A DNA stretch of 64,000 bases. It comes from Chthoniobacterales bacterium. Lineage in GTDB: Bacteria; Verrucomicrobiota; Verrucomicrobiia; Chthoniobacterales; UBA6821. The translations under genes were made by a program, and so were the position numbers. Of this stretch, positions 3,393-46,847 are shown one piece after another (position 1 is the first letter of the stretch; each line of letters opens with the position of its first letter). The stretch lies in assembly GCA_036824855.1 (NCBI GenBank), contig DAISZK010000004.1, forward strand, positions 13,434-77,433, in the 5' to 3' direction. Below the pieces are notes generated by a model that saw only the letters and a list, made by a program, of their open reading frames with translations, was not told the origin of the DNA and ran no database searches.

Positions 3393-6113
3393 CTACTCGA
3401 TTGGTTTTACCGGCTTATCAACCGAGATGAGGTGATCATTGCCGCGTGAAACCTTGAGATCGGTCTTCCCCGTGGTGGATTTGGTAAATTCCAACCGATC
3501 TTTTTGCTCAGGCCACAAAACCGTGACCGCATTTGTTCCATCCCATGCCGTGACGGGAAGAGGATCTCCCTGCCGATACGGATAGAGCAGCACCTTGAAA
3601 CTTGGTTCCACGCTATGTGCCGGGATGGCAAGACGGCGGACGCGCTGGAGGTAGTGGCCCTTCGGCTTGGCCGGCGGCTCGTCCTCCAGAATCGTTGGCT
3701 CCTTGGCCTCGGTAGCCGGCACGACCTTGGGATCATTCTCGATCTGAAGGAACCGGACAAGCAGCATGGGCTGCCCCGCGGGAACCGGACTGTTGGTATC
3801 GCGAAGTGACGGAAGCGGGGGTTTTGGATTTTTTCCGGATCCTGGAGCATTTTTCTGTCCGGGATCATTGCCCGTCAGCACAAGATCAAGGCCTCCCGTG
3901 GCATTCGTCTCCCGCTTTACGATCTGCACATCGTACTCCGTCGGCAAATACCAGGTGTAGTCGTGCGGGGTATCATCCTTGCGGATGTCATCGAGGACCA
4001 AGCCGTAGGGATGGGTGCCGCGAACCACGCCGGCCGTCCTCCATGCATACTGGACGGGATAGTTCGTTCCACGCGATACGGGGGTGATCGATCCCTTGAT
4101 CTTGAGCCAGTCTGGCTGATGCCCCAGCGGAGCCTTCAGGTAATCGTCATCATGCTTTGAGTAAGCGAAGTCATTGATGCCGTGTTTTTCGAGTTCGAAT
4201 CCGGGGCGGATTTTCACGCCGTTGGTGGCAAGATCCTGCTCTGTGTAGCGGCCTTTGGCGCCCCAGTTGTCCAGACGGTCCCACTTCCAATCCCACGGAT
4301 ACTTCGCATCCCCCACCGCGAACGTGGCGTTGGTGGCATCGACAAAGTCGACCATGCGACCGGGCGTGTAGTCATATTCAGGCTGGAGATGATCATCGAT
4401 CACCACCTCCCCGTTATTCACGTTCTGGAATCCCTCGTAGCCCCAGCCGTAGATGGGAGACCAGACCCGTCCTGCGCCGGCCACCATGATCGAGTTGCGG
4501 TCGGCAAAGGGATGTCCCCCGTTCGCCTGACGCACATGGAGGTTGAGCATCAGATCATTGGTTCCCCATCCGCTACGGGTCATGAGCAGCGCACGGTCTC
4601 CGCAGAAAAACGTATTCCCAAGATCGAGCTTACCAGGATCAGTGTTCGCGAGATCGAAATCACAGGCAAAGACCAGGAAGGGAATCAACGGATCGTGGTA
4701 ACCGCCTCCGACTGTCGGTTCGTAGCTACCGGATTCGCATCGGTTAGGAAGATTCTCGTAGTGGTCCCCGACCGAAGAGCGATAGGCGAAGTCGATCGCC
4801 TTGTCCTCGGGGATGAGATACTTGAAAGCGAGCAAATCCTCGGGGAAAGGCCTGAAGTGACACCCTCCGAGAAGATCGTACTTCACAAAGCCATCCCGTG
4901 TCGGAATGACGCTGTGGGGAGTGAAGCGGTTCACGTTAGCCCGAGCGTTGGGATGCGCAGCAAGGTTCTCAAAACCGTAGTCCTTGCTACGCAGCGAAAA
5001 GGCGAGGATCCCGTCGCCTCCAAGCTGATTCTTAGCCTCACCCTCGAAGTTGGCCCCCGAGGGGAACCAACCGTAAGTCATGAGATTTTTCCAACCACGG
5101 TACATTCCGCGGATTTTGAGATCGTTGAATCCGGGTTCCCCCTCGATGGCAAGGGTCGGTATCAACCAGTAGGAGAAGGTCGCCCAATTACTGCGGCTGA
5201 TAACAGCGTCATTAAAGCTACCGTAATTATCGTGGTTCCAAGTCCCATTGGCGATCTCGTCATGGACGAGTTTCCGCTGATCGGGCGTTAGAAAATTATA
5301 GAGAAAATCATAAGTGTACCCGAGATGGATCCCGGCGATCGGTTGGGCCAGTGGTCCCGTCATCAGCTTCGGATTGGCAGCCCTGTTTGCCTGCTCGATT
5401 TTCAGCGCCGTCGTGACTGCTGAAGCGAGATCCTTCGCGGCAGCCTGATCGTTTTCAATCCAGCAACGGAAGGCCTCGAGTGAAAAGACGTGCCAGAATC
5501 CCTCGGTCTTCTGCGTCATGTCTCCTTGAATAAGAGCCCTATACCTCTTGGCTGCATCCTCCGTTTTCCTGCCTGACTGAAGACTGGGAAGCCAGACCCG
5601 ATCTAATTTGCCTTGAGCTTTCAACACCGGATTGGGCTGCGCATAGTCGGCCTTGGGGTCGTAGGTCCCCTTCATAAAGTTGACGTAGCAGAGGAGGTTC
5701 TTCCACATCTCGCGGCCGCATTCGGTCTGCTTGAGGCGGCGGGCGATCTCGTCGTGATCGGCCGGCGTGCAGTAGATGCGCGGATGAATCCCTGGAGCAG
5801 GAATCTGGTTGGGCGTCTTGACCCCCGTCATGTCGAAAACAACCTTTCTTGGACCGAAATCCCAGGGATTTTCATCACCCCAGAGCGGATTGAACTCGTT
5901 CGTGCCAGACTTATAACCCGCATAGGAGGTGCAGGGCATCTTTGCAAAGGGAGAGTCCTTAGCATCATGAGGAGGAGGCCATGGAACTGCTCTCTGGGAA
6001 ACGTCGGGAACCCCATTCGGGAGAAGACTATTCGACGCGGTTTCCGCAAAAAGCGGAAGCGACAGAGAAAAAAACAGTAGCGACTTGAAGATTAAGGGGC
6101 GGGTTATGTTCAT
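3393..6113 (-). CDS. Secreted heparinase II/III-like (alginate-lyase-fold) protein, paralogue A
   Basis: 906-aa ORF with signal peptide MNITRPLIFKSLLFFSLSLPLFA. Motifs: GIHPRIYCTPADHDEIARRLKQ; LHVRQANGGHPFADRNSIMVAGAG (degenerate H-x-H-x-D heparinase II/III core); THPYGLVLDDIRKDD; FKVLLYPYRQGDPLPVTAW. All are shared with four other ORFs in this window. Long colinear identical stretches with the 898-aa ORF. Confidence 0.6.
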   Translation of the reverse strand: MNITRPLIFKSLLFFSLSLPLFAETASNSLLPNGVPDVSQRAVPWPPPHDAKDSPFAKMPCTSYAGYKSGTNEFNPLWGDENPWDFGPRKVVFDMTGVKTPNQIPAPGIHPRIYCTPADHDEIARRLKQTECGREMWKNLLCYVNFMKGTYDPKADYAQPNPVLKAQGKLDRVWLPSLQSGRKTEDAAKRYRALIQGDMTQKTEGFWHVFSLEAFRCWIENDQAAAKDLASAVTTALKIEQANRAANPKLMTGPLAQPIAGIHLGYTYDFLYNFLTPDQRKLVHDEIANGTWNHDNYGSFNDAVISRSNWATFSYWLIPTLAIEGEPGFNDLKIRGMYRGWKNLMTYGWFPSGANFEGEAKNQLGGDGILAFSLRSKDYGFENLAAHPNARANVNRFTPHSVIPTRDGFVKYDLLGGCHFRPFPEDLLAFKYLIPEDKAIDFAYRSSVGDHYENLPNRCESGSYEPTVGGGYHDPLIPFLVFACDFDLANTDPGKLDLGNTFFCGDRALLMTRSGWGTNDLMLNLHVRQANGGHPFADRNSIMVAGAGRVWSPIYGWGYEGFQNVNNGEVVIDDHLQPEYDYTPGRMVDFVDATNATFAVGDAKYPWDWKWDRLDNWGAKGRYTEQDLATNGVKIRPGFELEKHGINDFAYSKHDDDYLKAPLGHQPDWLKIKGSITPVSRGTNYPVQYAWRTAGVVRGTHPYGLVLDDIRKDDTPHDYTWYLPTEYDVQIVKRETNATGGLDLVLTGNDPGQKNAPGSGKNPKPPLPSLRDTNSPVPAGQPMLLVRFLQIENDPKVVPATEAKEPTILEDEPPAKPKGHYLQRVRRLAIPAHSVEPSFKVLLYPYRQGDPLPVTAWDGTNAVTVLWPEQKDRLEFTKSTTGKTDLKVSRGNDHLISVDKPVKPIE

Positions 6114-6135
6114 GGGAGTGGAGTGATGATTGCGA

Positions 6136-8349: not shown

Positions 8350-8366
8350 CGCTGGTGAATCAACAA

Positions 8367-10484: not shown

Positions 10485-10496
10485 GAATTGGGATGG

Positions 10497-18260: not shown

Positions 18261-21200
18261 TTATTTCCGATCATCCACCATCCGGATTTTGGTCCAACCG
18301 GGCTGCTCTTGGGTGAACGAGATCCGGTCCGTTGATCCATTGCCATGCTCGACCATCAGGACATCTCCGTCCCATGTTGTTTTTGGGAGAGGGGTGCCCG
18401 TCCGGAAAGGATAGAGAAGCACCCTGAATCCGGGAGCAACGGCATCAGTGGTGATGTCCAGCCAGGGCCATTTCACGAATTGATCGCGGCTATCTGTGAC
18501 AAACTTCGCGGGGGAGGCGGAAGCGAGCAAGCGGACCAAAAGTCCTGATTTTCCATCGGGTGAGTTGTACACAACCTCATTGTCGCCAACCTTGGTATGA
18601 TCCTTCAGATCCTCTGCCACCATCATCCGCCATTTGTAGTCGTGGACCTTGTCATCCATCCGGATGTCATCGGCGATCAGTGCGTAAGCAGCGGGTGAAC
18701 AGGGACTTTCTAATTTCGGACGGACGAATGCCGCAGTACGGAACGCTTTTGCCTCGGGATAAAGGATGCCCCACTCCCTGTTCTGTTTCTGTGAGAAGTA
18801 CCAGTCGGGCAGGTTGCCGTGTTTCATGTCCGCCCAACCGATCCCAAGACGAAACGGATGTTTCTGGTTGAAGGTGTAGGGAATGACCTCGCTCGGGAGA
18901 TTTTTGGCCAACCCGGTCGTACGGTAGGCGTCGCTGGCATCACCTGTGGCGGCCGTCAGGCGTTCACTGTCAAAGAAGTCCACCCCTGCGGAGGGTGCGT
19001 CACCAGACCCCTTGTCGTCCACTCGGACGATCGAGGTGGGAATTGAACTGTCTCCCTCGATATGGCCCGAACCCGACTGATGGATCACCATGGGGACCCA
19101 GTTTCTGCCCAGGGCATGGAAAACGAAACAATTGCGGTCCGGATTGGTATGTCCGCCGGGATTGCTTCTGGGTTGGAAGTAGAGCCTCGTGGCCTCGGGC
19201 GACCAACCGCTTCGGGTCACGAGCAATCCCTTGTAGGGGAACCAACATGTTTTCGGCGTGACGGGGCGAATCTGTTTTTCCAAGGCCTCCGACCACGAAA
19301 TCTGGCTTTGAAAATTCTCCGCGCAGATTGCCGCGAGAAGGTTACCGCCGACAAACGGCGCACGGTAGGACTCCGGGTCCTCACCTTTGGCGCTGTAAGC
19401 ATTGCGAAACACAAAATCGATCAGAGGATCGTTCGGATAGAGGTATTTTGCCACGAAATAATCGTCTGTGAATTGCCCTTTAATGGCCGTTCCTCCGTTC
19501 ATTTCGTCCATCGTGAAGCCGTAACCCACGGGCACCAGGCACTGGAGGAAAAATTGTCGGAAAAAGTTCCTGAAAGTATCCGAGGCCGCGAACTGATAGC
19601 CGCGTTTTGCCAGAGCAAGGTACTGCTGGCTGCCAAGCCAACCTTTCCCTCCCCCCTCGCTCAGTGTTCCGTCGGGCCACCCCAAGGAGCGCGTCTGCCT
19701 ACAGACCGCCGCGGCATAGGAACGGATGGCGGCCGGATCGGAACCCTCCTCCCCTTCGATGGCGAGGATCGTGAAGAGAAAATTCTGACTGGTCAGGGGC
19801 AGCCAGTTGGAATTGTTCGCATCGGGCCCCGGCAGTACGTGGAGGCCCATGACCGGAAGTTTGTCAGTCGTGCGGACAAGGAGCCGCCTGATCGATGCAC
19901 GCTGCGCTTGCGTCATGACCGGGGCAAGAAAGTCATAGCACCAGGCGATGTTCGTGGCATGAAGGCCGTAGAGGACCCGCCAGTCTTTCGTATCAAAGGT
20001 TTTGAGCTTCTCGCGGGCATTCGGAGCGACAACCTGTCCGAGATACTCGGCGATCGTCGCGACGGCGGCGGCCGCTTTTTTCGATGCTGGAGCATCCTCG
20101 TCGATAAGGGCTCTGAAAGACTCCGCGACCAGGGCCCCCATCAACTCAGTGACGGGAGCGCGAGGCGTCATGAAGGGCCTGATATCGCCTGCGGCGACGG
20201 CCTCGTAAAGTTTGCAAAGCTCATCTTTTTTCAGACGGTCGGCATCATCGCGGATTTTTCCCATCACGATGGGGCCTATGACCGTGCCGTCCTTCAGACG
20301 CCTGCGAAGGTCGGGCAGGTCTTCGGGATTAAAGAGGATCCTGGGATGTACGCCCGGCGCCGGAGGCGGCTTGATGCGCGACCAGTCGATCCCGCTCGGA
20401 TCATAGTTCATGTCCAAATCGGACGAGTAATCGGCAAGTTCCTTTTTGGAATAGCCCCCGAATGTTTCGGATACGGGATAAACTTCGACAACGATGCGGT
20501 CCTGACCGCGCTTCTTTCCGTCGGAGACATCAAGCTGAAGTTCGTAGGTTCCGGGATCACTGAATTTAGCCGTGGTGGCTAGCATGGCAGGGTTGCCGAA
20601 GGCGACGCTTCCCGGGCCTCCGGCAACGGACCATCGCACGTTGGATGGTGAAGGAATGTTGCATTTTCCCTGAAGCGAAAGCGTGGCCTCGGGCAACCAG
20701 GTCAGCCGGCTGCTTCCGGCGTTCACGTAGAGGGAACCGGGTTGCCACGCGTTGACCCAGGTGATGGCCGACTTGGTGCCGTCGGTCGTGCCGATGTCGA
20801 CCTGGAAAAGGTATTGTCCCAGCGCGTCCAGAGTCACCTCCGTCGAGAGGGTATCCTGGGAGGAGAGAATGGCATTCGAGGGACCGCCGACCTGTTTCCA
20901 CCGGCATGACGAGACCTTTGTTCCAGGATCAACGGTAGCAGTGAGCGTTGTCCGATCATTGGTGCTAAGATCTAGGGTATGGGTTCCGGCGTCGGCACGG
21001 AGATTGATTGCTGAAGCACCTCCCACATTGAGGGTGATTTCCGAGTTGCCCTCGGCGATACCGTCATTGGCCGTGAGCCGTATTTTGTATTCTCCGGGTT
21101 TTCCGGGGATAACGGCTTCGGTGGATGAGTCCCAGGGACGGGAGAAGGTGATACCTGCGGGGCCGCTGACTTGTTGCCATGTGGTTTTGGTGAAGGCGGG

Positions 21201-22700
21201 CGGGGCGGGCAATCCGTCATCATTCACCATAGCCCTGAGGATAACGGTTTTCGGAACTCCGGCCGGAAAGGTCGTTTCGCTGCATTCGATCGCACCGACC
21301 GCCGGCGGGATGTTCTTCACAACCCTGAATGATGCAAAGTCCGAGTCTGTCTGCCTGTTTGTATTGGATACCCTGCATTCGATCCCGAAATCACCAAATC
21401 CCCGGAGCGTCACGGTGGCCTCGGGTGACTTGGGGTTTTCGATCGTCATCATCTCCTTTGAGACGTGATAACCATTTACCCAATTGTAGCTGAGGTTCCC
21501 TTTTGTATCGGCAGCCAGGGTCCGGACTTTTAAGGTGACCTGATTTGTTCCCTCCGGGATTAAAACAACCGGAGGCTTGATGATCCGGATATAGGGATTC
21601 GGGGTGGCAAGAGGTGATTTTTTCATATAGGCCGGCCCACCCCGGAAAAGTTCCCCGGCCTCGCTGTCGGAGAGAGCCTTTCTGAAAATCATGAAATCAG
21701 CCAAGCCACCCTTCCATGGCTTTTTCCCATTCCCGTCGGCACCCAGATGCAGGGATTCGTCGACAGCCGAACTGGCCGCACCAAACTTAGAAGTCACCGC
21801 TCGGTCATAATCATCCTTGCCGAATTTCCCGATTTTCTGACGGATGCCATCAACATATTCCCAGATCAATCCGGATCGGAAATCGGTGACAAAGGTGACC
21901 TGATGCCAATTTCCGTCCGTAAGCGACTTGGTCCTGAAGGAAGCGTAGGGTGCGTAATAGTCGGGGGCAAACTGGCAGTAGATACCCCCGTCGGCCGTTG
22001 GAACCATGTAGAGGAATTTGTTCATTCCCGCGATCGCCTGATCGCTCTGGATCTGTTGGCCGAGCTTACCTGACTTTGAAACCAACTTTGGCATCCGAAC
22101 CCAGAAAGCCAACGAAAGGCCGCTACCCTGCATGGCATCCCCAAGTCCGTTCAGAACCGAGCCCGATTTGATGACCGGATGGAGTGTGGCTGCGGCAAAA
22201 TCCCATCCCGACTCGAATGGTTGCCCTGAAGCGGAGACCGGTGAGGGCGAAATACCGTTGGACTGGGAAAAGATAGCCGCAGTTTTGCCTGTCGAGTCCA
22301 CCGGCACACCGTTGGCTGGCGATTGTTCAAGACGGTAACGAAGGGCCAGTTGATCATCCCAGACCGGCTTGACCTCGAAGTGCACAGGCCTGCTGATCGT
22401 GCGTCCTTTTTCCCCGCTTGCCTCGACGTCATAATCCCCTGTGTTCTGGAACTGATTGTGCAGCGTCAGTGTGGCATTCGTTGCGCCCGTGATCGGCACC
22501 CCGTTCCAGCGCCATTGAAATGCGGAATTCACGGATGGATTAACGGCTGCCGTGAACGTGGTCTCCCCACCCGGTGCAACCAGCGCATGATCGGGCGTCA
22601 CGATGACTTCAATCTGCGCCCAACTAGGCAGCGCACACAGACACATCACAAAACAGACACAAAACAGACACTGGATTATTTTATTCATCGGGGGCTTCAT
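18261..22700 (-). CDS. Giant secreted multidomain protein: Ig-like + LamG/ConA-like lectin + PKD-like repeats + heparinase II/III-like module (paralogue B)
   Basis: 1479-aa ORF with signal peptide. Ig-like segment QWRWNGVPITGATNATLTLHNQFQNTGDYDVEA. LamG-like segment LSLAFWVRMPK...NWHQVTFVTDF...GGLADFMIFRKALS. Several about 90-aa PKD-like repeats (YKIRLTANDGIAEGNSEITLNV, YELQLDVSDGKKRGQDRIVVEV). Then the family motifs GVHPRILFNPEDLPDLRRRLKDG, NPGGHTNPDRNCFVFHALG, AAYALIADDIRMDDKVHDYKW and FRVLLYPFRTGTPLPKTTWDG. Confidence 0.6.
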   Translation of the reverse strand: MKPPMNKIIQCLFCVCFVMCLCALPSWAQIEVIVTPDHALVAPGGETTFTAAVNPSVNSAFQWRWNGVPITGATNATLTLHNQFQNTGDYDVEASGEKGRTISRPVHFEVKPVWDDQLALRYRLEQSPANGVPVDSTGKTAAIFSQSNGISPSPVSASGQPFESGWDFAAATLHPVIKSGSVLNGLGDAMQGSGLSLAFWVRMPKLVSKSGKLGQQIQSDQAIAGMNKFLYMVPTADGGIYCQFAPDYYAPYASFRTKSLTDGNWHQVTFVTDFRSGLIWEYVDGIRQKIGKFGKDDYDRAVTSKFGAASSAVDESLHLGADGNGKKPWKGGLADFMIFRKALSDSEAGELFRGGPAYMKKSPLATPNPYIRIIKPPVVLIPEGTNQVTLKVRTLAADTKGNLSYNWVNGYHVSKEMMTIENPKSPEATVTLRGFGDFGIECRVSNTNRQTDSDFASFRVVKNIPPAVGAIECSETTFPAGVPKTVILRAMVNDDGLPAPPAFTKTTWQQVSGPAGITFSRPWDSSTEAVIPGKPGEYKIRLTANDGIAEGNSEITLNVGGASAINLRADAGTHTLDLSTNDRTTLTATVDPGTKVSSCRWKQVGGPSNAILSSQDTLSTEVTLDALGQYLFQVDIGTTDGTKSAITWVNAWQPGSLYVNAGSSRLTWLPEATLSLQGKCNIPSPSNVRWSVAGGPGSVAFGNPAMLATTAKFSDPGTYELQLDVSDGKKRGQDRIVVEVYPVSETFGGYSKKELADYSSDLDMNYDPSGIDWSRIKPPPAPGVHPRILFNPEDLPDLRRRLKDGTVIGPIVMGKIRDDADRLKKDELCKLYEAVAAGDIRPFMTPRAPVTELMGALVAESFRALIDEDAPASKKAAAAVATIAEYLGQVVAPNAREKLKTFDTKDWRVLYGLHATNIAWCYDFLAPVMTQAQRASIRRLLVRTTDKLPVMGLHVLPGPDANNSNWLPLTSQNFLFTILAIEGEEGSDPAAIRSYAAAVCRQTRSLGWPDGTLSEGGGKGWLGSQQYLALAKRGYQFAASDTFRNFFRQFFLQCLVPVGYGFTMDEMNGGTAIKGQFTDDYFVAKYLYPNDPLIDFVFRNAYSAKGEDPESYRAPFVGGNLLAAICAENFQSQISWSEALEKQIRPVTPKTCWFPYKGLLVTRSGWSPEATRLYFQPRSNPGGHTNPDRNCFVFHALGRNWVPMVIHQSGSGHIEGDSSIPTSIVRVDDKGSGDAPSAGVDFFDSERLTAATGDASDAYRTTGLAKNLPSEVIPYTFNQKHPFRLGIGWADMKHGNLPDWYFSQKQNREWGILYPEAKAFRTAAFVRPKLESPCSPAAYALIADDIRMDDKVHDYKWRMMVAEDLKDHTKVGDNEVVYNSPDGKSGLLVRLLASASPAKFVTDSRDQFVKWPWLDITTDAVAPGFRVLLYPFRTGTPLPKTTWDGDVLMVEHGNGSTDRISFTQEQPGWTKIRMVDDRK

Positions 22701-27300: not shown

Positions 27301-27623
27301 GGATCCTTGAGATCAAGGACAGCGGCAAAACCGGCCGGCACAAATAACTCCCCATCGATCATCACAGCCTCACCCCCGTGAAGGGCCTCCTGTTGATCCA
27401 ACCGAACACGCAACCCATTCACATAACCGTATCGGCTACCACTGCAGACCGCTATGGTTCCCTTGATTTTAGCGAGAGCAGAGGCTTGGGCGGAACGGGT
27501 GTAAGGTAATCCCTGATCCTGGGCTGGAGTGGCAAGAATCTGGTCTTTGTTGGGAACCGAATCGGCGCCTTGAAGAAGGGATGCGCCGGCAAGCACGGAA
27601 AGAATGACTATGTATGGTTTCAT
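24396..27623 (-). CDS. Secreted heparinase II/III-like protein, paralogue C (N-terminal stalk-like domain)
   Basis: 1075-aa ORF, signal peptide MKPYIVILSVLAGASLLQGA. Motifs GIYPRLLFSPEDLPSMVERVKKS, canonical heparinase II/III core YGAGHHHADAGMFHFSGEGVDWF, NHPYGLVIDDLRKDGAEHLYQW and FKVLLIPFRMGEPMPSVTYD. Confidence 0.65.
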   Translation of the reverse strand: MKPYIVILSVLAGASLLQGADSVPNKDQILATPAQDQGLPYTRSAQASALAKIKGTIAVCSGSRYGYVNGLRVRLDQQEALHGGEAVMIDGELFVPAGFAAVLDLKDPAGAADKSLYNLADRWVYTLALPPIPSSLKTRDVDGKPYVALAQLAKEKRFTVSNNERGLLFIGKKKITFTGKEKSLLDCVVSLFDTPDRFVDPSIAPAIVPTLKQQGVWTDHIKVSSKDHELLNGPETKWPTAPVASYDTNGFNAALLGSKVPAPGIYPRLLFSPEDLPSMVERVKKSVLGQQSLIQMEELFKKSWWDPSTSDGQVFKKLSTGDLAGLEWDMTPGMSLGNVPQQFKGQKPGIHNSHVAYVPECLTSMALYCLLTGDEEHGKAVAAAIANYFKLREPLIDQWNQLSDSEFGSTPYNGSGAVTCWRGMHGLAAQMNLGLALDFGGKWMNEEQKEIMHRVIVKATYGRRPYGQDSTVRFRDVNWVAWDLPHYLALAAIEGLPGVDPEGVQSDLETVRAFCDWGVDEKGVVYESNGKTPGSLQFQTLSMIIMARRGENLFAHPHWRKFLEGQVQMTSPTGKVTVNSGTQYAPYSRQELSMMFINEQRAFFPENKCADYLLSQSLVKVGPEDEYYRTWLPQTNAFDPETYRKEVASMKRLRLPSISYPGFVSGVLYNNDYKVTSREDIGLPLDFSDPVHGVFSSYSDRTSNAAWINMMVRPDHYYGAGHHHADAGMFHFSGEGVDWFTQTAYNQVFDGRYFNLVQVDGHSEAEPGPQGITAYNGAAKWIGSTNGESGAVASADLTYAYSWRWMTQPPGIWNATVQGLGWSFEPTERIREIFAGTARNKMRPWWLTYNTSNYIATSRAPFNPMKYVYRTTGLSRGNHPYGLVIDDLRKDGAEHLYQWCGMLSGGVWEATVTGAPKGSLVLGYDRSKDVSNPAMTTLPPYGKGDGAFGASKPVSGDPLLLVLPLTPDASNDKVAPLISVEKAKGPLDKKGVPQPYDRLVISTRSQESHFKVLLIPFRMGEPMPSVTYDAKSCTATLRWGDQCETLVFAQGSNGKTDVTISREGKVVVTSTLGAK

Positions 27624-27641: not shown

Positions 27642-30338
27642 TTAGTGAGTTTCCAAAATTGGCTCGGGATCTTTTGTGACAGAGATAAGTGGCGTCGTGA
27701 TACCGGCACGCTTGAGGATCAGGTTGTTTTTTCCTGACCTTCCGGCGGAGATGAAGGCGGTGTCCTGCTGGCCGTTCCATGCAATGGAAAGCTGCGTGTG
27801 GGCGGGATTCCATGCGGTTTCAGGCAACACATCTCCCTGTCGATGAGGGAAGAAAAGCACTTTGAATCCGGGAGCAACCGAGTCACTTGGGATCACAAGA
27901 CGACGCATGGAGCCATATCTTTTGGCATCGGTTTGGTTTGGAAGGATCTCAACCCGGGGATCGCCCATCCCTGCGGCCTCAAGGACGCGCACCAGCAAGA
28001 CAGGTTGATTGGAGGGAATAATGGACCCCGGCGCCATGCTGCCGGGAATCGGTTCCTTCGGAGGCGTGGCCGACTGGTTTGGATCCGCTCCGGTAAGCAG
28101 GATGTCAGTTGTTCCATCCTTGTTTTTTGACACCGAGGCAATCTGGATGTCCCTTTCAAGGGTCATCACCCAGTCGTAATGGTGCTTGTCATCATCCTTG
28201 CGGATGTCATCCAAAGCGAGCATGTAAGGGTGGACGCCGCGAACAAGGCCCGCCGTGCGAAAAGCGGTCTGAACTGGATAATTAGGTTTCCTGACAATGG
28301 GTGTGAGCGCACCAGCCGGAAGGATCCAACTCGGCAGTTCGAAGAAGGGTGCCTTCACGTAGGCATACGGAAGCTTCGTGTAGGAAAAGTCGTTGATGGA
28401 ATGCATCTCAGGTTCCGTGCCGGGAGGAACAATGACCTTTTTGCCATCCACATCCTCCTTGGTGTAATATCCCCCTTTTTTCTCAAGACGATCCCACTGC
28501 CAGTCCCAGCAGTACTTGGCATCTCCGACGGCAAAGGTGGCGAGCGGTGCATCGACTAAGTCGACGAGACGCCCCGGGGTATTCACCGTTTGGGTTTTCC
28601 CGTCGATGTCGACCACGCTATTCTCCGAGGTCTTGAAGCTTGAATATCCATTGGGAGACCAGATTCGCCCTGCGCCCGCGATCATCAGGGCGTTGCGGTC
28701 GGCGAAGGGGTGTCCCCCGTTTGCCTGCCGGACGTGAAGGTTTAATTGCGCGGCATTCGTGTCCCAGCCGCTGCGGGTCATCATGAGCGCCCTCTCACCG
28801 CAGAAAAACGTGTTGCCGAGGGCAAGCTTGGTGACATCGCCGTTACCAGCGTCGAAATCGGTGCAGAATGAGGCAAAGAATAGGAGGGCGTTGAAGTAGC
28901 CGTCGGGCCGCGTCGGGACATTCTCGTAGTTCTCCCCGATTGACTGCCTGTAGACCCAGTCAATCACCTTGTCATTCGGGAACATGTATTTCAGACCAAG
29001 CATGTCGCAGGGGGTGAATCCGCCATTACCCGCTCGACTGCCGCCCAGAAGATCGTATTTGTGAAAACCGGTAAGCATCGCATTGATGCTGTGCGGAAGA
29101 AACTTTCTGGCGTAAGCCTGCAGGTAGGGATGACCGCAGAGATTGGTGAACCCGTATTTCTTCTCCCTGGCGGCGAAGAGCATCACGCCGTCCATTCCGA
29201 GCTGGTTCTTGGCCTCCCCCTCGAATGTTGCCCCGGAGAGGAACCAACCGTAGGTCAGTAGATCGCGCCAACCGCGGTACATGCCTCGTACTTTGAGTTC
29301 GTTGAATCCATCTTCCCCCTCGATCCCAAGCACCTCATAGAGCCAGTAACTGAAGGTGGCCCAATTACTGCGGGAAGTGGTGGCCTCGTTGAAGGTTCCG
29401 TAGTTGTCATGGGACCAGGTGCCTAAGGCAAGTTCATCATGGATTGACTTCTTCTGCGCATCCGTCAACCAGTTGAAGAGGAAGTCATAGCAGAAAGACA
29501 ATTGGAAGGCCCCGACCGGCTGATCGGGGGGAAGATCCACCCAAGACTTGTGTTTGGCCTCGGCCTCCGCCTTGGCGGCGGCCTGTTTGGCATCCCGCTG
29601 GGCCTGTCCGATCCGAAGATTAGTGATGACTGCGGCCGCAGCTTCCTTGGCTCCTTTCTCGTCATTGTCAATGAGGCACCGGAAGGCCTCCAGTGAAAGT
29701 GTGTTCCAATAATATTCGGGCACTGTCGTCGCCGTTCCATCAATCATCGATTTCCAAAGGGTCGCGGCATTATCGCTTTTGTTCCACTTGCTGCCATTGA
29801 CCGCAGATCTCCCAAGCGGTGCGCCGAGACGACACAATGGCACCCTGGCATGAAGACCCTGCCAGCCGCCCAGAGTCAGGTCTGGTTTGGCATAGTCCGA
29901 ATGATCATCATAGAGTCCCTTCATCACCTCGGTCCAGGAGAGGATGTTTTTCCATGCTTCCTGTCCGCAACGGGTCTGCTTAAGGCGACGACGCACGTCA
30001 GGCAGATCATCAGGTGTGAAGAAAATCCTGGGATGGACTCCCGGTGCGGCAGCCTGATTCAGGGGGCGTACGCCTGACTGGTCAAACGTCACTTCACGGG
30101 AGCCAAAGTCGAGCGGTTTCAGACTTCCCCAGAGAGGAAAGACAGTTTGACCCTTGTCGTTCTTGTAATTGCTGTAGGAATTGCAGGACTTGGGGGCGAA
30201 GGGAGAGTTCGCAACCTGTTGATCAAGGGATCCCGTATCTAGGTACTGCTGGCTGCCATGCGCGCGAGTATCGCAAAAGAGGAAGGCTACGCAGACGCCC
30301 ATGATGGCGGTCATTCTCAATCGGGGGGTGAATTTCAT
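27642..30338 (-). CDS. Secreted heparinase II/III-like protein, paralogue D (closest to paralogue A)
   Basis: 898-aa ORF. Motifs GVHPRIFFTPDDLPDVRRRLKQT, LHVRQANGGHPFADRNALMIAGAG, VHPYMLALDDIRKDDDKHHYDW and FKVLFFPHRQGDVLPETAW. A 21-nt string (28191-28211) is identical to 3973-3993 in paralogue A. Confidence 0.6.
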   Translation of the reverse strand: MKFTPRLRMTAIMGVCVAFLFCDTRAHGSQQYLDTGSLDQQVANSPFAPKSCNSYSNYKNDKGQTVFPLWGSLKPLDFGSREVTFDQSGVRPLNQAAAPGVHPRIFFTPDDLPDVRRRLKQTRCGQEAWKNILSWTEVMKGLYDDHSDYAKPDLTLGGWQGLHARVPLCRLGAPLGRSAVNGSKWNKSDNAATLWKSMIDGTATTVPEYYWNTLSLEAFRCLIDNDEKGAKEAAAAVITNLRIGQAQRDAKQAAAKAEAEAKHKSWVDLPPDQPVGAFQLSFCYDFLFNWLTDAQKKSIHDELALGTWSHDNYGTFNEATTSRSNWATFSYWLYEVLGIEGEDGFNELKVRGMYRGWRDLLTYGWFLSGATFEGEAKNQLGMDGVMLFAAREKKYGFTNLCGHPYLQAYARKFLPHSINAMLTGFHKYDLLGGSRAGNGGFTPCDMLGLKYMFPNDKVIDWVYRQSIGENYENVPTRPDGYFNALLFFASFCTDFDAGNGDVTKLALGNTFFCGERALMMTRSGWDTNAAQLNLHVRQANGGHPFADRNALMIAGAGRIWSPNGYSSFKTSENSVVDIDGKTQTVNTPGRLVDLVDAPLATFAVGDAKYCWDWQWDRLEKKGGYYTKEDVDGKKVIVPPGTEPEMHSINDFSYTKLPYAYVKAPFFELPSWILPAGALTPIVRKPNYPVQTAFRTAGLVRGVHPYMLALDDIRKDDDKHHYDWVMTLERDIQIASVSKNKDGTTDILLTGADPNQSATPPKEPIPGSMAPGSIIPSNQPVLLVRVLEAAGMGDPRVEILPNQTDAKRYGSMRRLVIPSDSVAPGFKVLFFPHRQGDVLPETAWNPAHTQLSIAWNGQQDTAFISAGRSGKNNLILKRAGITTPLISVTKDPEPILETH

Positions 30339-39569: not shown

Positions 39570-39613
39570 GAGGTGGGAGGAATGTCGTTAATTTAGGGTT
39601 GAGGAGGTTGAAA

Positions 39614-43479: not shown

Positions 43480-43508
43480 TAATAAACTAAAAATAATCCA
43501 CGGCAGAA

Positions 43509-46500
43509 TTAGCCTCCTGATCTTTTGAAATCGACCCGGGTGCGGTGGTCGGGATTGGAGGAGTTGAAAGTGATGGTGTCCTTCACCCCATTCTTGAGAT
43601 CGATGGTCACCTGGGTGTGATCCTTATTCCAGATCGTTTCTGGAAGCTGCTCTCCCGTACGGAAGGGGAAAAGGAGTACCTTATACTTGGGCTCCATCAC
43701 CTGATTGCGGGTTATAAAGAGGCGACGGATGTCACCGTTGGTGGTGTCACTGCTCCCCGATTGTTTATGAACCTCAATTACAGGGTCCTTCTTCGGATCA
43801 GCCGTTTCGGAAAGATCCCGGACCAGGAGCCTGGGAAGACCGGCCTTATTGGGATCGTCGGCCGGCGCACTGTCCAATGGCGCGTGAAGCAAAATCGCCT
43901 CCGAAACAGTGGCTCCGGGCTCCGCATCAAGATCGGAAGGGATCTTTTTTCCCTCGCTATCAGTGAAGAGACTCGGCGGCCCGAACATCGTTGAACAATT
44001 CATCTGCCAGCGATAGTTCCGCGGCGTACCGTCCTTGTTGATATCGTCAACAATGAGTGCGTAGGGACGCTTTCCGCGGACAAAGAGAACCGTGCGGTAG
44101 GCATACTCGACGGGATTGTAATTCGTCGTGAGTTTCATCGGGGAATTCAGGTCGAACACGGCATCCGGATTCTTGGCGATGGTTGCCTCGTAGAAGCCGG
44201 GATACATGAAATCTCTGCGGCGCAGGGTGGTCTCCACCTGATTGTCGCCGTAACAGTAGGAATAGGCCGCCGCATTGTCCCCGGCCATGACCACGCAGGA
44301 CTTGTCGGGGGTTTCGGTAACCTTGAAGAGTTTTCCGGGAGGCGTGGGGAAGCAATGCTTGTAATCGGATCCCTGAGGGATTGCATTCGGCCCCTCACCC
44401 ATGAATCCCTGGGTTAGCACGTCATTCGTGTACCGAGGATCCTGAATCAGCACCTCGGATTGCCAGGTACTGTCGGTCACATGGTAGCCGGGAGCAAAAC
44501 TCCAGGGACGCCCTAGCGCAAAGAAGGAGAAGTTGCCCTTCTCGGCATGCATGTGTCCGGCACCATACCACCCCTCGTCGAAGTCGAGTTTCATGGCCTC
44601 CTCATCCCAACCCGTGCGGCAGACAACCACTCCCATCTGTGGATCCACCTTGGTGAGGACCGGGTTTTTCAGTCGAGCGACATCCTCCAGCGTGGTCGGT
44701 TTACCATTAATCCCCGGATCGAGGCCAAACAGCGTCTGAATAAACGGATTGAAGCCGAGGCCCGGGGCATTCCCCGCATAGATGTAATCCACGGCCGGAT
44801 CATCGGGGTACATGTATTTCATCATCACGACATGGTTCTGGCGGTAATCGCCGCCGCCGTCGTGGTGGTCGTAGAGAAAGTAATGGGAGCTGTAATTCTC
44901 CGATTTATTCTCCGCCGGAGCCTGATAGCAGGAGTAGAGGAGTTGGAGGACCGTGTTGTAAAAGAGTGAGGTGACAAATTGGTTCTCAGCACCATGACGG
45001 GCATAGGCGACCGGGGTCGGCCAGAGGCCCCAGGCGCTGAATCCGTAATAGGCTTCCCTGTTCGCCGTGAACCCCCATGGAGATACATAACCGTCGTCAT
45101 TGAACCAAATGGCCCGCTGCAGATTATCGATTGCCACCTTACGGGCAAAGGGCCACGAGCAAGCTACCGAGTAGGGATGACTCTCAAGGCATCCCCCTTG
45201 GGTATCCGCGCCGGCGGGATGCACCCAATCGTATGCTTTGTAGTCCGAGGAAGTGAGGTGGTCATCCGGAACAGGAAGATCAGTGAACGCTTTGACCACC
45301 TCTGGCGAGACCCCGCCCTCCTCACCTTCAAGAACCATGGCGTTAAGCACCTTTTCCTCCTCAATGTTCATGAAGTCTCCGTTTTGCTCATAGCCTCGCA
45401 GGAGTCGTCCGTGGATTCCGGAAGCGAAAAAGACCACACGGGCTCCGGTGGTCCGGCCGACGCTTTGGGCATAGAGGAAATCGCGGATCGCCCGCTTCTC
45501 AGGTGACGTCATCCACGATGCCGTGAAATCGTAGGCAAGCCCGAGCGAACTCATGTTCCAGTAAACGCCCCCGGGTTCGTTTAAGCCGTCCGGAAAAATC
45601 GGGTAATCCTTGTGAAAGGCCCCTGTTTTGGAGTCCCAGCATCCGTGCAGGAGGGTATAGCCAATGGAGGCGGTGATCTTGCCCAATCGGCGAAGGCGAT
45701 CCTTATTCGCAGCGGGTACCTGATCATGGGGGATCCTGGGATCTTGATCAATCCAGGCCACCAGCGTGGCATCCCGGAGTTGGTTGCAATATTCGTTGAA
45801 ATGGTTTCTCGCATCGCTCCAATCGGGCCCCTTGTCTCCCGGTTTGGATGGAATCCCCATGGTCAGGTCTGGCGCCGCGCCTTGGAATCCGGAATCCGCG
45901 AATTTGACAAGCTGATCACTCAGCTTCAGGAAATCCGATCCCGGCTTGTCAAAGCGCTCCTCCGTCTCTTTGCGAAGTTTGGCAAGGCACATGGAGGCAA
46001 TTTTCCCGTGCTGGGTGCGCTCGCTCAGTTCCGGCCAGTCTTGGGCAGTGGTATAGAGCCTTGGATGACAATATGGCCCGGGATCCGGCGAAAGCGTCCT
46101 GACCGAGGGTGGTGGCAGAATGCCGGGGGATGGGCAAAGGGGATCCTCCTTGCCCTCGCTCACAATGGGGGAGCGGAAGTTCCAGACATTGATCCAGCAG
46201 TTGCGCGAGAGCGAGATCCCGTGGACAGAGTCCGCGACCGTCAAACGAACCTCAAAGATTCCCGCACCTATGATCGAAACCTTGGTGAAAGCGGCGTCGT
46301 TGGGACTAAAAGAAACGGGATTCGCCCTTCCCATGGTGGCTGCAAACGGACTGAGTCGCTCCTGAACCTCTTCCCAGGAATAATGCAGCACCGCATCCTT
46401 GGGAAATCCACGCGTGATGGCGGAAATGGAGGTCTGAACGGGAAGGTCGCCGTGATCAGGAAAAAGGATAGGATGTTCGATCGAGAATACCAGCGATGGC

Positions 46501-46847
46501 TCGGAGTCAGGACTCAGATCGTGTGCGATTTCACGCAAATCCACACCCGGGATCGGCTTGATATCGGAAAAGGAGAGATGAAAGGGACTCCCCGCACCAT
46601 GTTTGGCCAGGAATCCCTCACCGTCCCGTTGCAGCAGGCTGACTTTGGTGCCAGAGGATAGGGTCACAGACCCAATCTGCACGCCGTCCCGAAGGAGAGG
46701 GGCCTTGATGGAGGCAGCAAGTTCACACTCCACAGAGGCCCCCAACGAGATGCCCATGAGTGCAATCAGGATGAGGAACGATGCGATCGGGAGACGTGGC
46801 CGAGGGCGCAAAACGTAAGTCATGAGGGAGTTTGTTGGATTTAGCAT
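43509..46847 (-). CDS. Secreted heparinase II/III-like protein, paralogue E (N-terminal PKD-like extension)
   Basis: 1112-aa ORF. Motifs YCHPRLYTTAQDWPELSERTQHG, WYGAGHMHAEKGNFSFFALGRPW (H-x-H core), KRPYALIVDDINKDGTPRNYRW and YKVLLFPFRTGEQLPETIWN. PKD-like segment IFEVRLTVADSVHGISLSRNCWINV. Confidence 0.6.
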   Translation of the reverse strand: MLNPTNSLMTYVLRPRPRLPIASFLILIALMGISLGASVECELAASIKAPLLRDGVQIGSVTLSSGTKVSLLQRDGEGFLAKHGAGSPFHLSFSDIKPIPGVDLREIAHDLSPDSEPSLVFSIEHPILFPDHGDLPVQTSISAITRGFPKDAVLHYSWEEVQERLSPFAATMGRANPVSFSPNDAAFTKVSIIGAGIFEVRLTVADSVHGISLSRNCWINVWNFRSPIVSEGKEDPLCPSPGILPPPSVRTLSPDPGPYCHPRLYTTAQDWPELSERTQHGKIASMCLAKLRKETEERFDKPGSDFLKLSDQLVKFADSGFQGAAPDLTMGIPSKPGDKGPDWSDARNHFNEYCNQLRDATLVAWIDQDPRIPHDQVPAANKDRLRRLGKITASIGYTLLHGCWDSKTGAFHKDYPIFPDGLNEPGGVYWNMSSLGLAYDFTASWMTSPEKRAIRDFLYAQSVGRTTGARVVFFASGIHGRLLRGYEQNGDFMNIEEEKVLNAMVLEGEEGGVSPEVVKAFTDLPVPDDHLTSSDYKAYDWVHPAGADTQGGCLESHPYSVACSWPFARKVAIDNLQRAIWFNDDGYVSPWGFTANREAYYGFSAWGLWPTPVAYARHGAENQFVTSLFYNTVLQLLYSCYQAPAENKSENYSSHYFLYDHHDGGGDYRQNHVVMMKYMYPDDPAVDYIYAGNAPGLGFNPFIQTLFGLDPGINGKPTTLEDVARLKNPVLTKVDPQMGVVVCRTGWDEEAMKLDFDEGWYGAGHMHAEKGNFSFFALGRPWSFAPGYHVTDSTWQSEVLIQDPRYTNDVLTQGFMGEGPNAIPQGSDYKHCFPTPPGKLFKVTETPDKSCVVMAGDNAAAYSYCYGDNQVETTLRRRDFMYPGFYEATIAKNPDAVFDLNSPMKLTTNYNPVEYAYRTVLFVRGKRPYALIVDDINKDGTPRNYRWQMNCSTMFGPPSLFTDSEGKKIPSDLDAEPGATVSEAILLHAPLDSAPADDPNKAGLPRLLVRDLSETADPKKDPVIEVHKQSGSSDTTNGDIRRLFITRNQVMEPKYKVLLFPFRTGEQLPETIWNKDHTQVTIDLKNGVKDTITFNSSNPDHRTRVDFKRSGG

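What the first reader, a model, noticed from the sequence alone, without database searches (positions are those of the whole stretch)
3393..46847. Five diverged paralogues of one heparinase II/III-like family share private motifs and have accreted different N-terminal modules
The ORFs of 906, 1479, 1075, 898 and 1112 aa all carry the same motifs in the same order. (i) [GY][IVC][HY]PR[IL] plus an acidic/Pro helix and basic stretch: GIHPRIYCTPADHDEIARRLKQ, GVHPRILFNPEDLPDLRRRLKDG, GIYPRLLFSPEDLPSMVERVKKS, GVHPRIFFTPDDLPDVRRRLKQT and YCHPRLYTTAQDWPELSERTQHG, at about nt 5731-5795, 20290-20357, 26768-26836, 29981-30044 and 46005-46073. (ii) A heparinase II/III-type His core, canonical in two (GAGHHHADAG, GAGHMHAEKG) and degenerate in three (GGHPFADRN twice, GGHTNPDRN). 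(iii) HPY.L..DD[IL][RN]KD...Y.W. (iv) A C-terminal [FY][KR]VL[LF].P[FYH]R.G...P.T.W. Paralogues A and D still share a 21-nt identical string (3973-3993 = 28191-28211). N-terminal additions differ between members: none, Ig+LamG+PKD, a stalk-like domain, or a PKD-like domain. Lyase folds need uronate substrates, yet the neighbours are mostly neutral-sugar exo-glycosidases. The degenerate His cores may mean a changed mechanism. This looks like an expanded, possibly uncharacterised PL-like or hydrolase family.
Basis: partly seen in the sequence, partly recalled or inferred. Interest (0 to 1): 0.65.

Follow-up and report, generated by a model that had tools for sequence, protein, structure and literature searches.

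The report
Unannotated lyase-like family, five paralogues
Five secreted proteins in this sugar-degrading gene region belong to one unnamed enzyme family that has the fold of heparin- and alginate-cleaving lyases, but four of them carry a lysine where every solved relative has its catalytic tyrosine, so they may be a new kind of acidic-sugar-cutting enzyme.

Summary
Exactly five ORFs in the window (906, 1479, 1075, 898 and 1112 aa, all on the minus strand) match one family profile, with E-values from 1e-135 to 1e-247. The quoted motifs are present within 8 nt or less of the stated coordinates.

The "heparinase II/III-like" call is right for fold and clan only:
- AlphaFold models of A and E hit PL15, PL21, PL17, PL12, PL35 and PL39 lyases and DS-epimerase (Foldseek E about 1e-17, 9-13% identity).
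- A 78-sequence family profile hits Atu3025 at 4e-15.
- No paralogue reaches any Pfam or NCBIfam threshold, and every homologue with a source name is called "hypothetical protein".

Motifs (i) and (ii) are clan-wide, not private.

The catalytic His is invariant.

The catalytic Tyr of all solved relatives is Lys in A-D (58 of 78 family representatives have Lys, 18 have Tyr). Paralogue E probably keeps Tyr.

The five come from four old clades, not a local burst. The neighbours do include uronate enzymes: GH28 in the window, and GH88/105 beside Lys-type members in three phyla.

The most likely function is secreted uronate beta-eliminases with an Asn/His/Lys site. This is unproven.

The parts
3393..6113 (-). 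Paralogue A (906 aa), Lys-type. Signal peptide, no extra module. Last gene of a same-strand run: GH3-PA14, GH43-like, GH31, unknown 705 aa, GH3, A.
   Evidence: AF2 model has pLDDT 88 and pTM 0.87. Foldseek top hits are PL15 exoHep at 1.5e-17 and Atu3025 at 3e-16. dN/dS is 0.06-0.07 against orthologues at 83-84% identity.
18261..22700 (-). Paralogue B (1479 aa), Lys-type. N-terminal Ig-like, LamG and PKD-type domains, with the family core from about residue 743.
   Evidence: Pfam hits. Family HMM E 1.4e-171 over residues 743-1480.
24396..27623 (-). Paralogue C (1075 aa), Lys-type with the full GHHHAD motif. Has an about 240-aa N-terminal region with no Pfam match.
   Evidence: The C-supergroup has 98% NJ bootstrap support. 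The orthologue in L010 is 70% identical.
27642..30338 (-). Paralogue D (898 aa), Lys-type, in the same clade as A. First gene of the D-C-unk543-B same-strand block.
   Evidence: The D-C-unk543 order is kept in MAG locus L010. dN/dS is 0.084.
43509..46847 (-). Paralogue E (1112 aa), the most divergent. Signal/anchor helix, two N-terminal beta domains (PKD-like) and the family core. It probably retains Tyr.
   Evidence: AF2 model has pLDDT 77. Foldseek hits Atu3025 at 4.5e-17 and also PKD domains. Only sub-threshold Pfam hit: PF07940 at E 0.031.
5031..5045 (-). Catalytic-loop motif EGEAK in A (E357..K361). K361 occupies the position of the catalytic Tyr of solved lyases. Equivalents: B 19644-19658 (EGGGK), C 26031-26045 (ESNGK), D 29208-29222 (EGEAK), E 45048-45062 (NREAY, placement uncertain).
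   Evidence: Profile-to-PDB alignments align K to Atu3025 Y365 and PL35 Y246. Column counts are K 58 and Y 18 of 78. Coordinates. The ambiguity for E is shown.
5184..5189 (-). N309-W310 in A, aligned to the carboxylate-neutralising Asn position (PL35 N192-W; Atu3025 S310-H311). Equivalents: B 19803-19808, C 26187-26192, D 29361-29366. E has D-F at 45372-45377, with an invariant Asn two residues upstream.
   Evidence: Residue roles from PMC12088678.
4494..4517 (-). GH motif GHPFADRN in A. H534 is invariant and corresponds to Atu3025 H531 and PL35 H401. The second-His position is F in A and D, N in B, and H in C and E. Equivalents: B 19131-19154, C 25440-25463, D 28692-28715, E 44535-44558.
3951..4013 (-). 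Family-signature beta-strand motif (iii), HPYGLVLDDIRKDDTPHDYTW in A. D708 is invariant; D709, D713, Y719 and W721 are nearly invariant. It contains the 21-nt string shared with D (3972-3992 = 28191-28211). Equivalents: B 18630-18692, C 24927-24989, D 28170-28232, E 44007-44069.
3543..3599 (-). C-terminal motif (iv), FKVLLYPYRQGDPLPVTAW in A (P853 invariant). Equivalents: B 18372-18428, C 24540-24596, D 27810-27866, E 43629-43685.
5778..5786 (-). HPR motif at the start of the toroid domain. P111 and R112 are invariant in the family, and the motif is also present in Atu3025 and heparinase II. Equivalents: B 20340-20348, C 26820-26828 (YPR), D 30027-30035, E 46059-46067.
22753..24384 (-). Unknown 543-aa gene between C and B. 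It is a conserved companion of family members, especially the C type.
   Evidence: No Pfam or PDB match. Homologues lie within 10 kb of family members in 14 of 60 loci. It directly follows the C orthologue in L010; in Phycisphaerales L043/L064 its homologues follow the C-type gene after about a 100-nt gap, two of them as split fragments.

Best explanation
Shown. The five genes encode secreted members of one distinct protein family that no database annotates. The family is a far-diverged branch of the two-domain lyase clan, which has an (alpha/alpha) toroid plus an antiparallel beta-sandwich. That clan holds heparinases II and III, PL15/PL17/PL39 alginate lyases, PL35 GAG lyases and DS-epimerase. 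The five come from four old clades (A+D, B, C, E). Each clade has relatives from other assemblies that are closer than the paralogues are to each other. All five are under strong purifying selection where this could be measured.

Inferred. They use the clan's active site to remove the C5 proton next to a uronate carboxylate and eliminate the O4 substituent (a beta-elimination lyase reaction).
- The neutralising Asn and the His base are retained.
- In A-D a lysine takes the place of the tyrosine that protonates the leaving group in every solved relative.
- E probably still has the tyrosine.
- Each clade would handle a different uronate linkage of a complex, acetylated, rhamnose-, fucose- and xylose-decorated acidic glycan, such as a pectin-like polymer or an algal or cyanobacterial exopolymer.
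- The surrounding exo-glycosidases and esterases would strip the side chains.

Where a GH88/105 gene sits beside a family member, it would remove the unsaturated uronate that the lyase creates.
For: Fold.
- The AF2 model of A (pLDDT 88) hits only clan lyases and DS-epimerase in Foldseek ranks 1-39, at E 1.5e-17 to 2.5e-8.
- The model of E gives the same set.

Sequence.
- The 78-member family profile hits Atu3025 at 3.9e-15, and DS-epimerase, PL35 and exoHep at about 1e-10.
- N309 (72/78), E357 (74/78) and H534 (78/78) align to the clan's Asn, the Glu of its EG motif, and Atu3025 H531 / PL35 H401.
- Residue roles are taken from PMC12088678 and from the mutant names in the PDB titles.

The Lys/Tyr column.
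- It has K 58 and Y 18 of 78, so Tyr and Lys alternate at one site. Both are proton-transfer residues.

Selection.
- dN/dS is 0.06-0.08.

Uronate context.
- GH28 in the window.
- GH88/105 next to Lys-type members in Paludibacter/Bacteroidales (L053, L011), Lentisphaeraceae (L015) and Verrucomicrobia (L022), where the pair is followed only by unrelated genes.
- GH28 and PL9-like beta-helix genes in Phycisphaerales locus L064.

Multi-copy loci.
- They are typical of the family: 24 of 55 loci hold at least 2 copies, and one holds 6.

Precedent.
- Lys has been proposed as the catalytic acid in a uronate elimination by the ulvan dehydratase P29_PDnc (PMC8511951).
Against: - No activity has been measured for any member.
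- The defining catalytic Tyr is absent in A-D. No toroid-fold lyase with Lys in its place turned up among the solved structures or papers I checked here.
- The loop carrying K361 is modelled with low confidence (pLDDT <50 at residues 358-361), and I could not inspect model coordinates.
- Most loci (42 of 47 of at least 12 kb) have no GH88/105 within 10 kb.
- The commonest immediate neighbours are neutral-sugar GHs (GH43, GH3, GH2, GH29) and esterases.
- A, B and D lack the second His that ligates the metal in PL35 and heparinase II.
Confidence: 0.5

Rival explanations
1. Same scaffold, different chemistry. With the Tyr gone, the Lys-type members no longer cleave by beta-elimination. They would act instead as hydrolases, C5-epimerases, or dehydratases or other modifying enzymes on oligosaccharides produced by the neighbouring glycosidases.
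For: - Tyr is replaced by Lys in A-D.
- The metal-ligand His is lost in A, B and D.
- The clan already contains a non-lyase, DS-epimerase.
- Neighbours are dominated by neutral-sugar exo-GHs and esterases.
- Extra family-specific invariant acidic residues D708, D709 and D713 could supply carboxylate catalysts.
Against: - The retained Asn and His are the residues tied to carboxylate neutralisation and C5 proton abstraction.
- DS-epimerase itself keeps the Tyr.
- D708/D709 align to D/E in PL35, so they are probably structural rather than catalytic.
- GH88/105 adjacency in three phyla fits unsaturated products.
Confidence: 0.27
2. The five already belong to a curated CAZy polysaccharide-lyase family or subfamily of known specificity. 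That family would simply lack a Pfam or NCBIfam model, so nothing here is new.
For: - I could not run dbCAN or CAZy.
- Several recent PL families of this fold exist (PL33, PL35, PL37, PL39, PL40).
- Of 26 Tyr-type or intermediate (Lys-type C-supergroup) representatives scanned, 4 touch PF07940 weakly (best 4e-5) and 1 touches DUF4962.
Against: - Pfam and NCBIfam return nothing above threshold for any paralogue.
- Every homologue that carries a source name is called 'hypothetical protein'.
- Single-sequence PDB searches find nothing.
- The best structural matches have 9-13% identity and TM 0.4-0.6.
- The literature searches run to look for a described member found none.
Confidence: 0.13
3. They are non-catalytic glycan-binding proteins or pseudo-enzymes that keep the fold but not the reaction.
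For: - The canonical Tyr is lost in A-D.
- Active-site loops have low model confidence.
- Lectin-like modules (LamG, PKD) are often fused.
Against: - Cleft residues are invariant across 78 deep-branching representatives (R112, D269, H534, R692, D708).
- K361 is invariant in the 44-sequence A/D clade.
- dN/dS is below 0.1.
- The genes are embedded in operon-like runs of enzymes.
Confidence: 0.05

Closest known systems
PL15 exo-type lyases: Atu3025 oligo-alginate lyase (3A0O/3AFL) and exoHep (6LJA/6LJL)
   Same: - Best fold matches for both A and E (E 1e-17 to 4e-16) and the best profile match (3.9e-15).
- Same domain order: a small N-terminal region, the HPR motif, the toroid, then the beta-sandwich.
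- YD[WF], EG and GH.H.D motifs align.
- H531 aligns to H534.
   Different: - 11-13% identity, and no single-sequence similarity.
- Atu3025 H311 is Trp in A-D.
- The catalytic Y365 is Lys in A-D.
- The C-terminal motifs (iii) and (iv) are family-specific.
- The substrate is unknown, and neither the window nor the related loci examined look like alginate or heparin loci.
PL35 broad-spectrum GAG lyases (GAGase II 8KHV, GAGase VII 8KHW)
   Same: - Shares the Asn-Trp dipeptide at the neutraliser position (NNW) and the GH.H.D motif.
- Aligns over the toroid and the start of the sandwich at E about 1e-10.
- The catalytic triad Asn192/Tyr246/His401 is defined experimentally (PMC12088678), and two of its three positions are conserved here.
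   Different: - Tyr246 corresponds to Lys in A-D.
- The Mn ligand His403 is F or N in A, B and D.
- PL35 proteins match Pfam DUF4962 and Hepar_II_III, whereas these do not.
- The proteins here are 250-300 residues longer in the core.
Heparinase II (PL21), heparinase III (PL12), and PL17 and PL39 alginate lyases
   Same: Same two-domain fold (Foldseek E 1e-15 to 1e-8). The N-terminal HPR region aligns with heparinase II.
   Different: All use Tyr, as shown by their Y257A, Y258A and similar mutant structures. They are detected by Pfam PF07940, PF16332 or PF05426, which these proteins are not.
Dermatan-sulfate epimerase 1 (6HZN)
   Same: Fold match at E 1e-15 and profile match at 1e-10. It shows that this scaffold can support a non-lyase outcome of C5 proton abstraction.
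   Different: It is an animal Golgi enzyme. In the profile alignment it has a Tyr at the column where A-D have Lys.

Membership tests
Pfam Hepar_II_III_C (PF07940), DUF4962 (PF16332), Alginate_lyase (PF05426) | HMM score at or above the family's gathering threshold | tested here: not met
   There are no hits at E<=0.01 for any core. At E<=10, only the E core hits PF07940, with 14.2 bits against a threshold of 24 (E 0.031). NCBIfam gives only HepB at 17.9 bits against 600 for E.
Heparinase II/III-alginate lyase structural clan (toroid plus beta-sandwich) | An (alpha/alpha)n toroid followed by an antiparallel beta-sandwich, with significant structural similarity to solved members | tested here: met
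   For A, pLDDT is 88 and Foldseek ranks 1-39 are all clan members, with E down to 1.5e-17. For E, pLDDT is 77 and the same set is hit, with E down to 4.5e-17. The family profile hits Atu3025 at E 3.9e-15.
Heparinase II/III-alginate lyase structural clan | Active-site His at the start of the beta-sandwich (GH motif; Atu3025 H531, PL35 H401) | tested here: met
   H534 (A numbering) is present in all five paralogues and in 78/78 representatives.
Heparinase II/III-alginate lyase structural clan | Carboxylate-neutralising Asn in the toroid (PL35 N192; N of the NH/NW dipeptide) | tested here: met
   Asn is present in A-D and in 72/78 representatives. E has Asp in the aligned column, but an invariant Asn (N489) lies two residues upstream, so E is inconclusive.
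Heparinase II/III-alginate lyase structural clan | Catalytic Tyr in the E-G-x-x-Y loop (Atu3025 Y365, PL35 Y246, HepII Y257, Alg17c Y258) | tested here: not met
   A-D have Lys at this position (EGEAK, EGGGK, ESNGK). The family column has K 58, Y 18, F 1 and G 1. For E, MAFFT places Y600 here, but hhalign and HMMER do not confirm it.
Heparinase II/III-alginate lyase structural clan | Structural metal site using the second His of GH.H (PL35 H403; HepII H408 from memory) | tested here: inconclusive
   The second His is present in C and E, replaced by Phe in A and D, and by Asn in B. The Asp two residues later is kept in A-D and is Glu in E. The other ligands were not mapped.
Polysaccharide lyase (functional class) | Beta-elimination of a uronate glycoside giving a 4,5-unsaturated product | not testable with these tools
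   Only indirect evidence is available: GH88/105 genes adjacent to members in L053, L011, L015 and L022.
CAZy PL15 / PL35 (family-level membership) | Significant pairwise sequence similarity to characterised members | tested here: not met
   phmmer of A against PDB sequences gives 0 hits at E<=10. The A/D-clade profile gives 0 clan hits. Identity in structural alignments is 9-13%. dbCAN was not available.

The most novel reading that the evidence does not exclude
This is a new polysaccharide-lyase family of about 500-1000 50%-identity clusters, mainly in freshwater and soil Verrucomicrobiota, Chitinophagaceae, Planctomycetota and Lentisphaerota. The ancestral Asn/His/Tyr machinery of the toroid lyases has been rebuilt as Asn/His/Lys, and Tyr-type and Lys-type members still coexist, in this window within a single genome. 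Its multi-paralogue sets would cleave uronate linkages in complex acetylated rhamnose- and fucose-rich glycans for which no lyase is known.
Probability: 0.35. Interest if true: 0.7.

Novelty: new variant of a known kind. Interest (0 to 1): 0.55.

Why it matters
Toroid-fold lyases are thought to depend on a Tyr, with or without a His, for proton transfer. A large natural family that swaps this Tyr for Lys while keeping the His and Asn would extend that rule. It would also provide a ready-made natural mutagenesis series, because K-type and Y-type members sit side by side.

In practical terms, the family is invisible to Pfam and NCBIfam annotation. As a result, loci like this one look as if they lack any backbone-cleaving enzyme for acidic glycans. 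Assigning the family would change how glycan-degradation potential is read in freshwater Verrucomicrobiota, Chitinophagaceae and Planctomycetota genomes. It could also supply enzymes for recalcitrant algal, cyanobacterial or pectic polymers.

Tried and rejected
- Pfam and NCBIfam scans of all five paralogues and of the isolated cores and N-termini gave nothing above threshold.
- Single-sequence and A/D-clade-profile searches of PDB sequences gave no clan hits. Only the multi-clade profiles worked.
- I looked for a single conserved partner gene that would reveal the substrate. A tblastn of 27 neighbour proteins against 60 related loci, and a Pfam census of the 79 nearest neighbours, both show heterogeneous contexts with no dominant partner.
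- Contexts of E-clade orthologues were uninformative.
- PDB searches of the two unknown neighbours (543 and 705 aa) found nothing.
- Literature searches for a characterised member, a Lys-using toroid lyase, or new PL family numbers found nothing relevant. One search was a wasted query.
- I could not fix the catalytic loop of E. MAFFT, hhalign and HMMER disagree, and the model is low-confidence there.
- I rejected recent gene conversion between A and D. The 21-nt identity is the DDIRKDD codons, NG86 could not compute a synonymous distance for A-D (consistent with saturation), and A and D never pair as sisters in 100 NJ bootstraps.
- I rejected a clean single origin of the Lys state. All K-type members form one split in only 3 of 100 bootstraps, so the deep branching is unresolved.
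- The first bootstrap run had an invalid distance cap and was redone.

Full report
**1. The observation**

The window contains five long minus-strand ORFs at the stated positions: A 3393-6113, B 18261-22700, C 24396-27623, D 27642-30338 and E 43509-46847. A five-way alignment gives identities to A of 30% (B), 25% (C), 52% (D) and 25% (E). I built an HMM from 78 diverse family representatives and searched all 273 six-frame ORFs of at least 80 aa. It hits exactly these five, with E-values from 5e-247 to 4e-135, and nothing else.

The coordinates are off by 0-8 nt. The strict motif patterns for (iii) and (iv) fail in B, E and C, but relaxed versions match all five.

The 21-nt identity between A and D is real but lies at 3972-3992 = 28191-28211. 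It encodes DDIRKDD inside motif (iii). NG86 could not compute a synonymous distance between A and D (it returned -1; dN 0.44), which is consistent with saturation. The string therefore reflects a conserved peptide written in the same codons, not recent exchange.

All five start with hydrophobic signal-like N-termini (read directly from the sequences).

**2. What the family is**

No paralogue matches any Pfam or NCBIfam family in its core. At E<=10, only E touches PF07940, at 14 bits against a threshold of 24. Homologues of A (241 found) and of E (29 found) carry no core Pfam domain, and every one that has a source name is called "hypothetical protein".

An exhaustive profile search of 1.84 billion 50%-identity cluster representatives found 529 at E<=1e-30, 1039 at E<=1e-10 and 1857 at E<=1e-3. 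This is a real, mid-sized family with many architectures, up to 4036 aa.

A genome scan places close relatives in several groups:
- freshwater and soil Verrucomicrobiota (best matches 84% to a Spartobacteria MAG and 83% to MAG ELA636);
- Chitinophagaceae, Paludibacter and Bacteroidales;
- Planctomycetota, Lentisphaerota, Armatimonadota and Acidobacteriota.

**3. Fold and clan**

| Paralogue | AF2 quality | Foldseek result against the PDB |
|---|---|---|
| A | pLDDT 88, pTM 0.87 | Ranks 1-39 are all toroid + beta-sandwich clan members |
| E | pLDDT 77, pTM 0.75 | Same set (Atu3025 at 4.5e-17), plus PKD-domain hits for its N-terminus |

For A, the hits include PL15 exoHep (1.5e-17), PL15 Atu3025, DS-epimerase, heparinase II and families PL35, PL39, PL17, PL40, PL12 and PL33. 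Identities are 9-13%.

By sequence the link is invisible to a single sequence or to the A/D-clade profile. It becomes significant with the five-paralogue profile (about 1e-4). It is strong with the 78-representative profile: Atu3025 at 3.9e-15, and DS-epimerase, PL35 and exoHep at about 1e-10.

**4. Which motifs are private**

The alignments show that three motifs are shared with Atu3025, PL35 and DS-epimerase:
- HPR (P111 and R112 invariant in the family);
- YDF (D269 invariant);
- the EG loop and GH.H.D.

Motif (iii) also aligns to a PL35 strand (kaYvVvqDEI...W). However, its RTAGLVRG.HPY.LVVDDI.KD...H.Y.W form, and motif (iv), are family signatures.

**5. The active site**

I counted residues in the printed alignments and checked them against mutant names in PDB titles (3AFL H531A; 6LJL Y390A/H555A; 3E7J H202A/Y257A; 4OJZ Y258A). 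I also used the PL35 mutagenesis paper, which defines Tyr246/His401/Asn192 as catalytic and His403/Asp405/Asp421/His457 as Mn ligands (PMC12088678). The mapping is:

| Position in A | Conservation in family | Solved-relative equivalent | Role |
|---|---|---|---|
| N309-W310 | Asn in 72/78 | PL35 N192-W; Atu3025 S310-H311 | carboxylate neutraliser |
| E357 | 74/78 | Glu of the clan's EG motif | conserved clan residue; role not established |
| K361 | K 58, Y 18, F 1, G 1 | Atu3025 Y365; PL35 Y246 | catalytic acid/base |
| H534 | 78/78 | Atu3025 H531; PL35 H401 | catalytic His |
| F536 | H 38, Y 13, F 12, N 5 | PL35 H403 | Mn ligand |

So the "degenerate His core" is only the loss of the metal-ligand His in A, B and D. 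The catalytic His is invariant.

The real departure is Lys in place of the catalytic Tyr in A-D: EGEAK in A and D, EGGGK in B and ESNGK in C. Canonical-looking Tyr-type members (NW / E..GY / H.HADRG) belong to the same family.

E is a special case:
- The 78-sequence MAFFT alignment puts its invariant PWGFTANREAYYGF loop on this site, with Y600 at the K361 column. Its sister sequences read GF.LER.AY, and the downstream ARHGAENQ fits the family's ARRG.NL motif.
- hhalign between the A/D and E clades (probability 100%, E 7e-51 overall) and the five-sequence MAFFT alignment place that segment 14 residues further on.
- HMMER skips the region, and the model is low-confidence there.

I therefore treat "E keeps Tyr" as probable, not shown.

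**6. History of the five**

Midpoint-rooted NJ with bootstrapping gives:

| Grouping | Bootstrap support |
|---|---|
| A + D + P0026 + P0111 | 100% |
| A + P0026 | 99% |
| A + D as sisters | 0% |
| C-supergroup | 98% |
| E clade with P0262/P0263 | 100% |
| All Lys-type members as one split | 3% |

Each paralogue has closer relatives in other assemblies than within the window, and the N-terminal architecture is a clade trait. In MAG locus L010 the orthologues of E, D and C (66-75% identity) lie in the order E-x-D-C, followed by a homologue of the unknown 543-aa gene.

dN/dS against orthologues is 0.06-0.08.

Multi-copy loci are the rule for this family: 24 of 55 loci carry at least 2 copies within 10 kb, and one carries 6.

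**7. Context**

In the window, the D-C-unk543-B genes form a tight same-strand block, with gaps of 11-52 nt, flanked by two LacI genes. A ends a run of GH3-PA14, GH43-like, GH31, unknown 705 aa, GH3 and A. E lies between RhaA/RhaT and a TPR/ExbB set.

- a GH28;
- three GH78-type proteins, one fused to an esterase;
- a GH141-like protein;
- a DUF4185-CE2N protein.

Elsewhere, the nearest neighbours are heterogeneous. Among 79 nearest ORFs the counts are PA14 6, GH43 5, GH3 5, several esterase families (4-5 members each, overlapping), GH2 4, GH29 3 and GH95 2. There are no sulfatases and no other lyase among the 25 most frequent Pfam families.

GH88/105 lies within 10 kb in 5 of 47 long loci. 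In four of these it sits beside Lys-type members:
- Paludibacter/Bacteroidales: GH88/105 - member - GH2.
- Lentisphaeraceae: member - TIM-barrel protein - GH88.
- Verrucomicrobia L022: member - GH88, followed only by restriction-modification genes.

My rough estimate is that this is several-fold above chance. This is an inference, not a computed statistic.

**8. Mechanism**

The best reading is a uronate beta-eliminase that uses the clan's cleft:
- Asn neutralises the carboxylate.
- His abstracts H5.
- Lys (or Tyr in the Y-type members) protonates O4.

Alternation of Tyr and Lys at one column fits a conserved proton-transfer role. Lys has been proposed as the acid in another uronate elimination, by the ulvan dehydratase (PMC8511951).

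Different clades in one locus would serve different linkages of one complex, acetylated, deoxy-sugar-rich acidic glycan. All of this is inference, and I put it at about 0.5.

The main rival, at about 0.27, is that loss of the Tyr marks a change of reaction to hydrolase, epimerase or dehydratase. I could not run dbCAN, so prior CAZy classification remains possible (about 0.13). A non-catalytic role is unlikely (about 0.05) given the invariant cleft residues and the strong purifying selection.

**9. Verdict**

This is a distinct, unannotated family in a known structural clan with a non-canonical catalytic residue, so I class it as a new variant of a known kind. It is of moderate to good interest for carbohydrate enzymology and for reading glycan-degradation loci in freshwater bacteria. 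The function remains to be shown experimentally.

Noticed in passing
window 22753-24384 (-): A 543-aa protein with no Pfam or PDB match (weak alpha/beta-hydrolase hints only: epoxide hydrolase at E 0.038, Hydrolase_4 at E 0.08). It recurs next to family members in 14 of 60 related loci. It directly follows the C-type gene in a Verrucomicrobial MAG (L010). In a Phycisphaerales genome (L064) homologues follow the C-type gene after about a 100-nt gap; there it appears both intact and as two split fragments.
   Followed up: partly
window 8367-10484 (-): A 705-aa protein with no Pfam, NCBIfam or PDB match. It overlaps the GH3 start by 4 nt inside the GH31-GH3-A run. Homologues occur in 8 of the 60 related loci.
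   Followed up: partly
window 51253-54624 (-): A 1123-aa fusion of a GH78 alpha-L-rhamnosidase with a C-terminal BD-FAE/alpha-beta-hydrolase esterase. It lies next to a DUF4185 + CE2_N protein (49550-51235) and to RhaT and RhaA (47103-49538).
   Followed up: no
The last ORF starts only 114 nt from the window end, so the cluster probably continues beyond it.
   Followed up: partly
window 17233-18252 (+) and 30621-31598 (+): Two LacI-family regulators bracket the D-C-unk543-B block on the opposite strand. They are possible local regulators of that block.
   Followed up: no
window 38724-43479 (-): A 1012-aa multi-TPR protein, a 276-aa TPR/YbgF-like protein and an ExbB/MotA-family protein lie directly downstream of E on the same strand. 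They may form a TonB-type uptake or envelope module linked to E. E orthologues in other loci did not share this context.
   Followed up: partly
window 4182-5291 (+), 19062-20582 (+), 45612-46661 (+): Long antisense ORFs (349-506 aa) lie inside A, B and E. They were not tested. I take them to be by-products of the 55% G+C content on the strand opposite real genes.
   Followed up: no
window 46824-46847: The public gene call for E starts 8 codons downstream of the first ATG (1104 aa versus 1112 aa), so the true start of E is uncertain by 24 nt.
   Followed up: no
L016 (Victivallales MAG), whole 21.9-kb locus: Six family members lie within about 22 kb. This is the densest cluster seen and shows that paralogue arrays of this family occur in Lentisphaerota too.
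   Followed up: partly
L061 306-1325 and L066 5932-9842: GH172-family genes lie within about 9 kb of an A-type member (L061) and immediately beside an E-type member (L066) in two unrelated loci. The association is unexplained.
   Followed up: no
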